The notes below the pieces were generated by a model. The model saw only the letters and a program-made list of their open reading frames with translations. It was not told the DNA's origin and did no database searches. 9,388 bases of DNA from a virus (Duplodnaviria; Heunggongvirae; Uroviricota; Caudoviricetes). Below are positions 1,778 to 2,174 of this stretch, piece after piece; within the stretch, counting starts at the first letter, position 1, and every line of letters starts with the position of its first letter. The stretch is from IMG/VR virus record IMGVR_UViG_3300029497_000144. One strand, written 5' to 3'. Position numbers and translations under genes: made by a program.

Positions 1778-1797
1778 AACTGTATTTATATACAGTT
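1778..1797. promoter_or_regulatory. LexA (SOS) box of the dinD promoter
   Basis: aaCTGTATTTATATACAGtt; core 1780-1795 is a perfect CTGT-N8-ACAG palindrome with AT-rich centre, the LexA operator consensus, directly upstream of dinD on the - strand. Confidence 0.8.
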
Positions 1798-1890
1798 GTG
1801 AGTATCTCACGTTCTCAGTGTGCTGGGCAAAAAAACATCGCAAAATCTGGAGCAGGCACGCAAAACAGAATTGAATGTTGCGGGGAAGAA

Positions 1891-1920
1891 AAATGCCGCT
1901 CTGTTTGAGTGGCGGCATTT
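1891..1920 (-). terminator. Possible intrinsic terminator hairpin upstream of the dinD promoter
   Basis: AAATGCCGC (1891-1899) and GCGGCATTT (1912-1920) form a 9-bp stem around a 12-nt loop. Read on the - strand the stem is followed by TTTTCTTCC. The loop is long and the U-tract is interrupted, so confidence is low. Confidence 0.35.
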
Positions 1921-2035
1921 GTGAAGGCGGAAAAGTAAGAATTGGCGTTACGAGTTATTCGTTGAATCTGTTTATTGAGTAGGAGTCTCTAGGCCGCGTG
2001 GTTACTGGATTCCTTGTAATGCGTTTTCTAAGTAG

Positions 2036-2053
2036 GTACACCCTTGTGTACAC
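2036..2053. promoter_or_regulatory. Inverted repeat GTACAC-CCTT-GTGTAC(AC), candidate operator upstream of CDS 2175-2534
   Basis: Perfect 6-bp inverted repeat with 4-bp spacer seen directly, about 125 bp upstream of the + strand gene. A TATGAT -10-like hexamer lies about 35 bp upstream of the ATG. Confidence 0.3.
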
Positions 2054-2174
2054 GGTATTTTGAGGTGCTGTCTTTGGCTGCTCATTTTATGCTCTCATGC
2101 TTGCTGTTCTGGCCTCTTATCTTTTGCGCCTTATTGTATGATAGTGCTATCCCACAATAAGGAATCAGCCAGCC

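What the first reader, a model, noticed from the sequence alone, without database searches (positions are those of the whole stretch)
1778..2174. Element junction lies within about 150-400 bp of the LexA-regulated dinD promoter
The intact LexA box at 1780-1795 and a hairpin at 1891-1920 are followed within about 250 bp by element genes. The upstream chromosomal neighbour expected from E. coli K-12 gene order (yicC, from memory) is absent from the window, so the element appears inserted between it and dinD. The att core and any duplication should be in 1921-2174.
Basis: inference. Interest (0 to 1): 0.45.

Follow-up and report, generated by a model that had tools for sequence, protein, structure and literature searches.

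The report
Satellite island junction in yicC's end
This is the ordinary outer boundary of a small phage-satellite island (PICI type) that has inserted into the last codons of the E. coli gene yicC, a published insertion site; lying next to the SOS-controlled dinD promoter is a coincidence of gene order.

Summary
The dinD LexA box (1778-1797) and a hairpin (1891-1920) are present, and both are K-12 backbone. The hairpin is the yicC terminator, now separated from its gene.

Island-free genomes stay colinear with the window only up to 1961-1964. The break is an att block at 1955-1970, not somewhere vague in 1921-2174. This block is a shortened copy of the last six codons plus stop of yicC (K-12 attB: TTATTCGATGTTCTGAATCTG).

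In eleven relatives read with the full 10-18 kb element (nine of them on both sides), the second copy lies next to the integrase. It rebuilds an intact yicC and brings a new terminator. Two metagenome contigs carry the joined attP form.

Allele patterns place the crossover in TGAATCTG (1963-1970). Arm-type repeats sit at 2035-2055.

The element has a P4-family primase, iteron origin, SSB, PerC, AntA, and Ash/Icd with C4/isrK RNAs. Relatives add AlpA and an arm-binding integrase that is 87% identical to that of the reference PICI EcCIRM13514, published at 'yicC-dinD'.

The same element family sits at yicC in a strain lacking dinD, so the dinD adjacency is incidental.

One minor new detail: the dinD-side att copy is shortened in about 25 of 29 occupied genomes, and by 5 nt in this window.

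The parts
910..1746 (-). dinD (backbone gene). The RefSeq start maps to 1734; the longest ORF starts at 1746.
   Evidence: NCBIfam NF008573 equivalog, E = 2.7e-146. Coordinates mapped from K-12 locus L001.
1778..1797 (.). LexA operator of dinD (AACTGTATTTATATACAGTT). Backbone, unchanged from K-12.
   Evidence: 100% identity to K-12-type genomes across 1600-1961.
1891..1920 (-). Intrinsic terminator of yicC, now separated from yicC by the element. It stands between the element and the dinD promoter.
   Evidence: 9-bp stem followed by a U-run on the minus strand, z = -3.8. In K-12 it lies 34 nt after the yicC stop codon.
1955..1970 (.). Int-distal att identity block TTATTCG/TTGAATCTG. It is a 16-nt, 5-nt-shortened copy of the 21-nt attB (TTATTCGATGTTCTGAATCTG = yicC codons QIQNIE + stop). 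1955-1957 is the complement of the yicC stop codon; 1955-1961 is clearly host-derived.
   Evidence: Alignments with K-12 and with both junctions of relatives. Synthetic attP query: P-arm matches end, and P'-arm matches begin, at the two ends of this block.
1963..1970 (.). Crossover segment TGAATCTG. GAATCTG is invariant in all 27 attB, attP and junction sequences read. The proposed 7-bp overlap is TGAATCT (1963-1969).
   Evidence: Host alleles lie left of it on the dinD side; element alleles lie left of it on the yicC side. The symmetric TACTC-N7-TGAATCT-N7-GAGTA is visible in the attP contigs. The overlap assignment is inferred.
1970..1981 (.). Proposed P' core-type integrase half-site GTTTATTGAGTA. 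GAGTA (1977-1981) is the inverted partner of TACTC. The first unambiguous element base is 1971.
   Evidence: GAGTA is invariant across three diverged element types and two attP forms. Binding is inferred.
2035..2055 (.). Pair of arm-type repeats GGTACACCCTTGTGTACACGG in the P' arm.
   Evidence: Nearly invariant in all seven aligned elements. Two to five more GTACAC copies (plus GTACCC variants) lie within about 200 bp upstream of int in relatives. The relatives' integrase has an Arm-DNA-bind_3 domain. The sequence is not a stable hairpin, z = -0.2.
2129..2162 (.). 16-nt inverted repeat (operator-like) directly upstream of the first element ORF.
   Evidence: Conserved in the IMG/VR attP contig. 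The left arm recurs near int in LF4-1 (D17). Function not tested.
2175..2534 (+). orf119, the first element gene and the only one on the plus strand. Function unknown.
   Evidence: 65% identical to the opposite-strand ORF of the reference PICI EcCIRM13514. No Pfam, PHROG or NCBIfam match.
2575..3948 (-). Distal element genes: 61-aa ORF (2575-2760), PerC (2895-3176), SSB (3179-3649), 100-aa ORF (3646-3948).
   Evidence: Pfam PerC 1.8e-29 and SSB 1.2e-14; PHROG hits.
4001..4252 (.). Origin-like iteron field (TATCCCTAC / GTAGGGATA, 10-nt phase) just downstream of the primase gene.
4268..6766 (-). P4-family primase-helicase (Zn ribbon, Toprim, D5_N, DUF5906).
   Evidence: Annotated 'phage/plasmid primase, P4 family' in relatives.
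7101..9388 (-). Regulatory ('Bro') zone: Ash/Icd-like ORF (7101-7994) containing the C4 antisense RNA (7494-7581) and isrK (7630-7706), AntA/AntB (8108-8941), and an ORF cut by the window end (8954-9388). AlpA and int lie beyond the window.
   Evidence: Rfam C4 81.1 bits and isrK 60.3 bits, both above gathering score. Pfam Phage_ASH and AntA. Gene order in relatives.

Best explanation
Window 1955-1970 is the integrase-distal attachment junction (attR when int is taken to lie next to attL) of a roughly 10-13 kb phage satellite of the Gram-negative PICI type. The satellite integrated by tyrosine-recombinase site-specific recombination into the last 21 nt of yicC.

**How it works**
- The element's attP carries a near-copy of the yicC 3' end.
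- Strand exchange occurs within TGAATCTG.
- On the far (int) side, the element's own copy supplies synonymous codons and a stop. YicC protein is therefore unchanged, and the element also supplies a new terminator.
- On the dinD side a useless yicC tail, the old yicC terminator and the untouched dinD promoter with its LexA box remain.
- The P' arm (1971 to about 2060) carries a core-type half-site and two arm-type integrase repeats.

**What is shown and what is inferred**
- Shown: the breakpoint, the repeat at both ends in relatives, the joined attP form, and the crossover interval.
- Inferred: the exact cleavage positions, integrase binding to the motifs, and helper-phage dependence.

The LexA-regulated promoter nearby is incidental gene order.
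For: - **Backbone ends at the block.** K-12 and thousands of island-free genomes are colinear to 1961-1964 and then continue into yicC.
- **Full element in relatives.** Eleven complete genomes carry the whole element between dinD (or yicG) and an intact yicC, with int next to yicC. Nine of them were read on both sides.
- **Block at both ends.** The dinD side carries host alleles and the yicC side carries element alleles. The host alleles are confirmed as native in more than 1000 empty sites.
- **YicC unchanged.** The YicC protein accession is identical with and without the island: WP_000621340.1.
- **Joined attP.** Contiguous P-core-P' joints occur in an IMG/VR contig and in a circularly permuted 11.4-kb metagenome contig.
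- **Integrase.** It has Arm-DNA-bind_3 plus the catalytic domain, and AlpA is present in relatives. It is 87% identical to the EcCIRM13514 integrase and 90% identical to the attP contig's integrase.
- **Arm repeats.** They are conserved across diverged elements.
- **Published site.** Fillol-Salom 2018 (PMC6092414), Table S1, lists EcCIRM13514 at yicC-dinD with core GAGCAGATTCAA, the reverse complement of TTGAATCTGCTC.
- **dinD is dispensable.** Strain E7 has the element at yicC with no dinD, and 710 of 5426 genomes lack dinD.
Against: - The window ends inside the element, so its own int, alpA and far-end repeat are unseen. Its source genome was not found: the best relatives are about 96% identical, and the junction 40-mer is absent from genome contigs.
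- The dinD-side block is 5 nt shorter than conservative recombination predicts, so this copy may no longer be a working att site.
- No packaging, capsid or Rpp-type gene was identified in the window, and helper dependence is untested.
- The C-O-C' core model was fitted after the fact.
Confidence: 0.9

Rival explanations
1. The junction is functionally coupled to the SOS response. LexA-controlled transcription from the dinD region would enter or regulate the element, or the element would be targeted there to gain SOS control.
For: Physical proximity only: the LexA box is about 165 bp from the junction.
Against: - The dinD promoter fires leftward, away from the element.
- The yicC terminator lies between the element and the promoter.
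- There is no second LexA box anywhere in the window's 7.4 kb of element.
- The same element family occupies yicC in strain E7, which lacks dinD. The published Citrobacter PICI site is yicC-yicG.
- The dinD promoter region is identical to K-12.
Confidence: 0.03
2. The element is not a PICI. It would instead be a P4-type satellite, a decayed prophage, or a conjugatively mobilised island of the kinds also known to target the yicC 3' end (MGIVflInd1, SGI1-like IEEcoMOD1).
For: - P4-family primase and C4/isrK immunity RNAs.
- RefSeq and two papers call such inserts prophages.
- The yicC 3' end is also used by mobilisable islands.
Against: - No Psu, Sid or Delta, no capsid or lysis genes, and no relaxase, TraG or MpsA among the ORFs scanned.
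- Size 10-13 kb, one-directional int-alpA-Bro-pri-ori-SSB-PerC order, and an 87%-identical integrase to a published reference PICI at the same site.
- The boundary between PICI and P4-like is partly one of naming.
Confidence: 0.1
3. The window's copy is a grounded island. The 5-nt loss next to the crossover segment has destroyed the left integrase half-site, so the element can no longer excise.
For: - About 25 of 29 window-type occupied genomes have a shortened dinD-side block (-2 to -7).
- The yicC-side copy is full length in all 11 examined.
- The same -2 loss occurs on three host alleles.
- No empty site carries the -2 allele.
Against: - No functional data.
- GAATCTG and the P' arm are intact.
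- Many tyrosine recombinases tolerate weak B-type half-sites.
- The length estimates are alignment spans, checked by direct reading in six of those genomes.
Confidence: 0.35

Closest known systems
EcCIRM13514, reference Gram-negative PICI of E. coli O145:H28 RM13514 (Fillol-Salom et al. 2018, PMC6092414, Table S1)
   Same: - Same site (yicC-dinD) and same orientation.
- Overlapping att core.
- 87%-identical integrase (measured against the closest complete relative of the window element).
- Same arm-type repeats and the same general gene order.
- orf119 homologue at 65% identity.
   Different: - Different primase type (607-aa primase versus the 832-aa P4-family primase here).
- ProQ/FinO and Rha genes are present there but not here.
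- Its element-borne yicC tail changes the penultimate residue (QIQNVE rather than QIQNIE).
- Its P' arm begins CTCATTGAG rather than TTTATTGAG.
CfCIP10159, Citrobacter freundii PICI at yicC-yicG (same table)
   Same: Same target gene end. Its published core ATCGAGTAAG is the left part of the same 21-nt block, read in reverse complement. It carries perC.
   Different: Different genus, with no dinD neighbour. Its sequence was not examined here.
EcCICFT073, the experimentally studied E. coli PICI
   Same: int-alpA-pri-ori plan, one-directional transcription, PerC-type accessory genes, and size class.
   Different: Different att site. Its Rpp/cos packaging and helper induction are demonstrated experimentally; nothing equivalent was identified in this window.
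Satellite phage P4
   Same: P4-family primase, arm-binding integrase, and C4/isrK-type immunity RNA inside a Bro-network gene.
   Different: No sid, psu or delta genes. P4 uses a tRNA-Leu att site and has a plasmid state.
yicC-targeting mobilisable islands (MGIVflInd1, IEEcoMOD1; PMC8409611)
   Same: Integration at the 3' end of yicC by a tyrosine recombinase.
   Different: Those islands are 23-37 kb, move by conjugation and carry tra/mps genes. None of these genes was seen here. Integrase relatedness was not tested.

Membership tests
Tyrosine-recombinase attachment junction (attL/attR) | Backbone colinearity with empty sites stops at a short block that is repeated at the other end of the insert | tested here: met
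   The breakpoint is at 1961-1964. The block lies at both ends in nine complete relatives read on both sides. The window's own far end is not available.
Tyrosine-recombinase attachment junction (attL/attR) | A joined attP form (P-core-P') exists | tested here: met
   L009/L010 and the circularly permuted L011. None was found in complete E. coli genomes.
Tyrosine-recombinase attachment junction (attL/attR) | Integrase with an arm-binding domain, and arm-type repeats in both arms | tested here: met
   Arm-DNA-bind_3 plus Phage_integrase in relatives. GGTACACC repeats at 2035-2055 and upstream of int. Binding itself was not tested.
Tyrosine-recombinase attachment junction (attL/attR) | Junction length conserved relative to attB x attP | tested here: not met
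   The window block is 16 nt instead of 21. In-register junctions exist in 2017.15.02CC, SW07096 and O157 M1300706002. The window copy is therefore a secondarily shortened site.
Gram-negative PICI (Fillol-Salom 2018 criteria) | int, alpA and pri-rep with an iteron origin downstream of pri, transcribed in one direction | tested here: met
   Primase at 4268-6766, iterons at 4001-4252, and all genes but orf119 on the minus strand. int and alpA were seen only in relatives.
Gram-negative PICI (Fillol-Salom 2018 criteria) | Size about 10-15 kb with no phage structural or lytic genes | tested here: met
   Window-type relatives are 10.3-12.8 kb. No structural or lysis domains were found in the scanned ORFs. 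Some occupants of the site are larger and carry IS elements or phage genes.
Gram-negative PICI (Fillol-Salom 2018 criteria) | PICI-specific att site | tested here: met
   yicC-dinD is listed as a PICI site. All eleven occupants read share the satellite plan. Other papers label them prophages.
Gram-negative PICI (Fillol-Salom 2018 criteria) | Helper-phage-dependent induction, replication and packaging | not testable with these tools
   Only indirect evidence: an attP-form contig sits in a viral-contig collection.
P4-like satellite | sid / psu / delta capsid-size and transactivation genes | tested here: not met
   None among the ORFs scanned against Pfam and PHROGs.
LexA (SOS) regulon, for the element rather than dinD | LexA box in front of an element gene | tested here: not met
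   The only CTGT-N8-ACAG in the window is dinD's.

The most novel reading that the evidence does not exclude
The integrase-distal att copy of yicC-resident satellites is lost repeatedly and in a patterned way. The same 2-nt loss sits exactly at the predicted top-strand nick (GTTC^TGAATCT becomes GTTGAATCT). It arose at least three times on different host alleles, and further losses followed (-5 in this window). This would be a scar of abortive integrase cleavage, or of selection for non-excising islands, that grounds most resident copies. It could also explain the 'att drift' reported for yicC PICIs.
Probability: 0.2. Interest if true: 0.4.

Novelty: already known. Interest (0 to 1): 0.12.

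Why it matters
It matters little beyond correct annotation.
- It fixes the island boundary to within 8 bp and shows that yicC is not disrupted.
- It shows that dinD and its SOS operator are untouched.
- It assigns the insert to a published satellite family and att site, where genome annotation and some papers call it a partial prophage.

The frequent shortening of the dinD-side att copy is a small lead on how resident satellites become fixed in chromosomes. It is also a caution for tools that define islands by exact direct repeats.

Tried and rejected
- **Source genome, public species genomes.** An exact search for the junction 40-mer gave 0 hits.
- **Source genome, complete E. coli genomes.** The best match to the element is about 96% identical, and no genome reproduces the 1921-2060 junction exactly (best 97.9%).
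- **attP in complete genomes.** A synthetic attP query found only the separate halves, with no tandem or circular form.
- **Empty site with the -2 allele.** This would make the -2 junction a conservative product. None was found among about 4190 full-length matches.
- **Crossover at the left of the block.** I rejected this model. The attP contigs carry the full block, and the alleles at block positions 4-13 sort by origin.
- **Hairpin at 2036-2051 as a terminator.** Rejected: z = -0.2, and it is a conserved repeat pair.
- **Promoter scan of 1650-2900.** Found nothing.
- **RgdR.** I tried to equate orf119 or the 100-aa ORF with the PICI regulator RgdR. I found no support (RgdR is 99 aa with RGD at residues 20-22), so I left the question open.
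- **The two O157:H7 islands.** One has an in-register junction and one has the -2 junction, but they are only about 94% identical. They do not show that the deletion arose within a clone.

Full report
**1. What is in the sequence**

The left 1.96 kb of the window is E. coli backbone in reverse K-12 orientation.
- yicG lies at 1-618 (minus strand).
- dinD lies at 910-1734/1746 (minus strand; NCBIfam equivalog, E = 2.7e-146).
- The dinD operator is the perfect palindrome AACTGTAT-N4-ATACAGTT at 1778-1797. It is the only CTGT-N8-ACAG in the window (0.11 expected).
- A hairpin lies at 1891-1899/1912-1920.

On the minus strand the hairpin is followed by a U-run and is much more stable than shuffled sequence (z = -3.8). 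In K-12 the same sequence lies 34 nt downstream of the yicC stop codon, so it is the yicC terminator.

**2. Where the backbone ends**

A 1-kb query across the region matched 4720 of 5426 complete E. coli genomes. In the great majority the match stops at window 1958-1964 and the record continues into yicC. Only 67 genomes cover the whole query. A 140-nt query gave the same result, with empty sites ending at 1960-1964.

The complement of the yicC stop codon is window 1955-1957. K-12 reads CGAG-TTATTCGATGTTCTGAATCTG-CTCGCG. The window reads CGAG-TTATTCGTTGAATCTG-TTTATTGAG. The insertion is therefore inside the last six codons of yicC, not in the intergenic spacer.

**3. The other end, seen in relatives**

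The window stops inside the element, and its source genome is not in the collections searched. The best matches are about 96% identical, and the junction 40-mer is absent from the species-representative genomes.

Eleven complete genomes with related inserts were read:
- LF4-1, MSB1_1D, E7, PSS-08-1, 2017.15.02CC, SW07096, SEV1 and 19-5
- O157:H7 strains NE1092-2 and M1300706002
- O145 strain RM13514

ETEC1749 was read on the dinD side only.

In every case the order is dinD, orf119, a variable set of genes, PerC, SSB, an iteron field, primase, small ORFs, Ash/Icd, AntA, an ORF, AlpA, an ORF, int, then an intact yicC.

The yicC-side junction was read in nine of these genomes.
- It is GATAGC-TTACTCGATATTCTGAATCTG-CTCGCG in window-type elements.
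- It is GATAGC-TTACTCCACATTTTGAATCTG-CTCGCG in RM13514-type elements.
- The first encodes QIQNIE-stop, exactly as native yicC does. The YicC protein accession is the same in K-12 and in island carriers (WP_000621340.1).
- The element also places its own GC-rich hairpin plus T-run after yicC.

**4. The excised form exists**

A degenerate pattern for a P-core-P' joint found one IMG/VR contig, which is also present in the JGI metagenome set. It also found one 11.4-kb ENA metagenome contig.
- The first reads GATAGC-TTACTCGATGTTCTGAATCTG-TTTATTGAGTA, with int on one side and orf119 on the other.
- The second reads GATAGC-TTACTCCACATTTTGAATCTG-TTCATTGAGTA. It is circularly permuted: the SSB gene is split over the two contig ends.

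**5. Where the strands cross**

Native attB has several synonymous alleles:
- TTATTCGATGTTCT (K-12)
- TTACTCAATATTCT (strain 536 and more than 1000 others)
- TTATTCAATGTTCT (O157)

On the dinD side the block always carries the host's allele. On the yicC side it always carries the element's allele, up to and including block position 13. Right of GAATCTG the sequence is P' on one side and yicC on the other.

The exchange therefore lies in TGAATCTG, window 1963-1970. In attP this segment is flanked symmetrically by TACTC-N7 and N7-GAGTA. That layout fits a C-O-C' core with the 7-bp overlap TGAATCT. This last step is inference.

Across three diverged element types and both attP forms the following are conserved:
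- TGAATCTG
- GAGTA
- the repeat pair GGTACACCCTTGTGTACACGG (window 2035-2055)

Two to five further GTACAC copies, plus GTACCC variants, lie within about 200 bp upstream of int in relatives. The integrase has an arm-binding domain.

**6. What the element is**

Within the window it carries:
- a P4-family primase
- a 10-nt-phased iteron field directly downstream of the primase gene
- SSB, PerC and AntA
- an Ash/Icd-like ORF that contains a C4 antisense RNA (81 bits) and isrK (60 bits), both above Rfam gathering scores

Relatives add AlpA and the integrase. There are no structural, lysis, Sid/Psu/Delta or conjugation genes among the ORFs scanned.

This is the int-alpA / Bro zone / replication / late-zone plan described for Gram-negative PICIs (PMC6092414). 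Fillol-Salom et al. list EcCIRM13514 (11.9 kb) at 'yicC-dinD' with core GAGCAGATTCAA, and a Citrobacter PICI at 'yicC-yicG' with core ATCGAGTAAG. These are the right and left parts of the same 21-nt block. A later study remarks on att drift among yicC PICIs.

The integrase of the closest complete relative is 87% identical to that of EcCIRM13514. orf119 is 65% identical to its counterpart there. Two other papers mention the insert as a prophage at yicC_dinD. The yicC 3' end is also used by unrelated mobilisable islands.

**7. Is the LexA box relevant?**

No evidence says so.
- The dinD promoter points away from the element.
- The old yicC terminator lies between the element and the promoter.
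- The dinD region is identical to K-12.
- The window's element DNA has no LexA box.

The decisive point is that dinD is dispensable for the site. dinD is missing from 710 of 5426 complete genomes, where yicG abuts yicC. Strain E7, which has that background, carries the same element family at the yicC end.

**8. One thing that is not textbook**

Conservative recombination of the 21-nt attP and attB predicts a 21-nt dinD-side block. That form exists in 2017.15.02CC, SW07096, LWY24, A3 and O157 M1300706002. Most occupied genomes are shorter, always just left of GAATCTG:

| Change | Where seen |
|---|---|
| -2 | Many strains, on three host alleles and with three P' types, so at least three origins |
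| -3 | PK6 |
| -4 | NH-21, E7 |
| -5 | This window, QDFD216 |
| -7 | SEV1, SEV4, 39EVA |

Among window-type junctions about 25 of 29 are shortened. Those figures are alignment spans; six of the genomes were checked by reading the sequence. The yicC-side copy is never shortened, as selection on the reading frame would predict. No empty site carries the -2 allele.

The window form (TTATTCG-TTGAATCTG) can be derived from the -2 form by a further 3-nt loss, but not from the full form in one step. Two explanations were considered, and neither was tested:
- decay of a site whose loss stops excision
- scars of failed integrase cleavage

**9. Verdict**

It is an ordinary, published kind of junction for a published satellite family. 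The adjacency to the SOS promoter is incidental. Interest is low. The only mildly new item is the recurrent shortening of the int-distal att copy.

Noticed in passing
window 1955-1970; L002-L008, L012-L016 dinD-side junctions: The int-distal att copy is shortened by 2-7 nt in most occupied genomes, always next to the invariant GAATCTG. The same 2-nt loss occurs on three different host alleles. The yicC-side copy is never shortened, and no empty site has the -2 allele.
   Followed up: partly
window 795-1954; L004 13860-14012: dinD is itself a presence/absence polymorphism. 710 of 5426 complete E. coli genomes (ST131 among them) lack it and have yicG next to yicC, with about 70 nt of unrelated sequence in its place.
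   Followed up: partly
window 7494-7581 and 7630-7706, minus strand: A C4 antisense RNA and an isrK RNA (P4-type immunity RNA module) lie inside the Ash/Icd-like ORF 7101-7994. A weak c4-a1b1 target hit lies at 7667-7719.
   Followed up: no
window 4001-4252: An iteron field (TATCCCTAC / GTAGGGATA, 10-nt spacing, in both orientations) lies immediately downstream of the primase gene. This is the PICI-type origin layout.
   Followed up: partly
window 2129-2162; L002 29553-29570: A 16-nt inverted repeat lies directly upstream of orf119. Its left arm, TGCGCCTTATTGTATGAT, recurs between int and the next gene at the other end of the element in LF4-1. It may be a shared operator.
   Followed up: no
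window 2535-2574: Relatives carry a pRiA4b ORF-3 family gene between orf119 and the 61-aa ORF. It is complete in E7, PSS-08-1, SW07096, SEV1 and 19-5, truncated in LF4-1 and 2017.15.02CC, and absent in the window and MSB1_1D.
   Followed up: no
window 6983-6992 and 7838-7847: Two runs of 10 N (masked bases) lie inside element coding regions. The ORF calls around them (6702-6947, 7101-7994) are therefore uncertain.
   Followed up: no
L012 12516-13729; L014 12566-13786: In two occupied genomes an IS (IS3 family; ISKox3) has inserted between dinD and the att junction, in or near the dinD promoter and yicC terminator region.
   Followed up: no
L011 (ERZ1034876 NODE_1165, 11437 bp); L009/L010: Metagenome and virome contigs contain the satellites in joined attP form. 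L011 is circularly permuted, which is direct sequence evidence that members of this family excise.
   Followed up: partly
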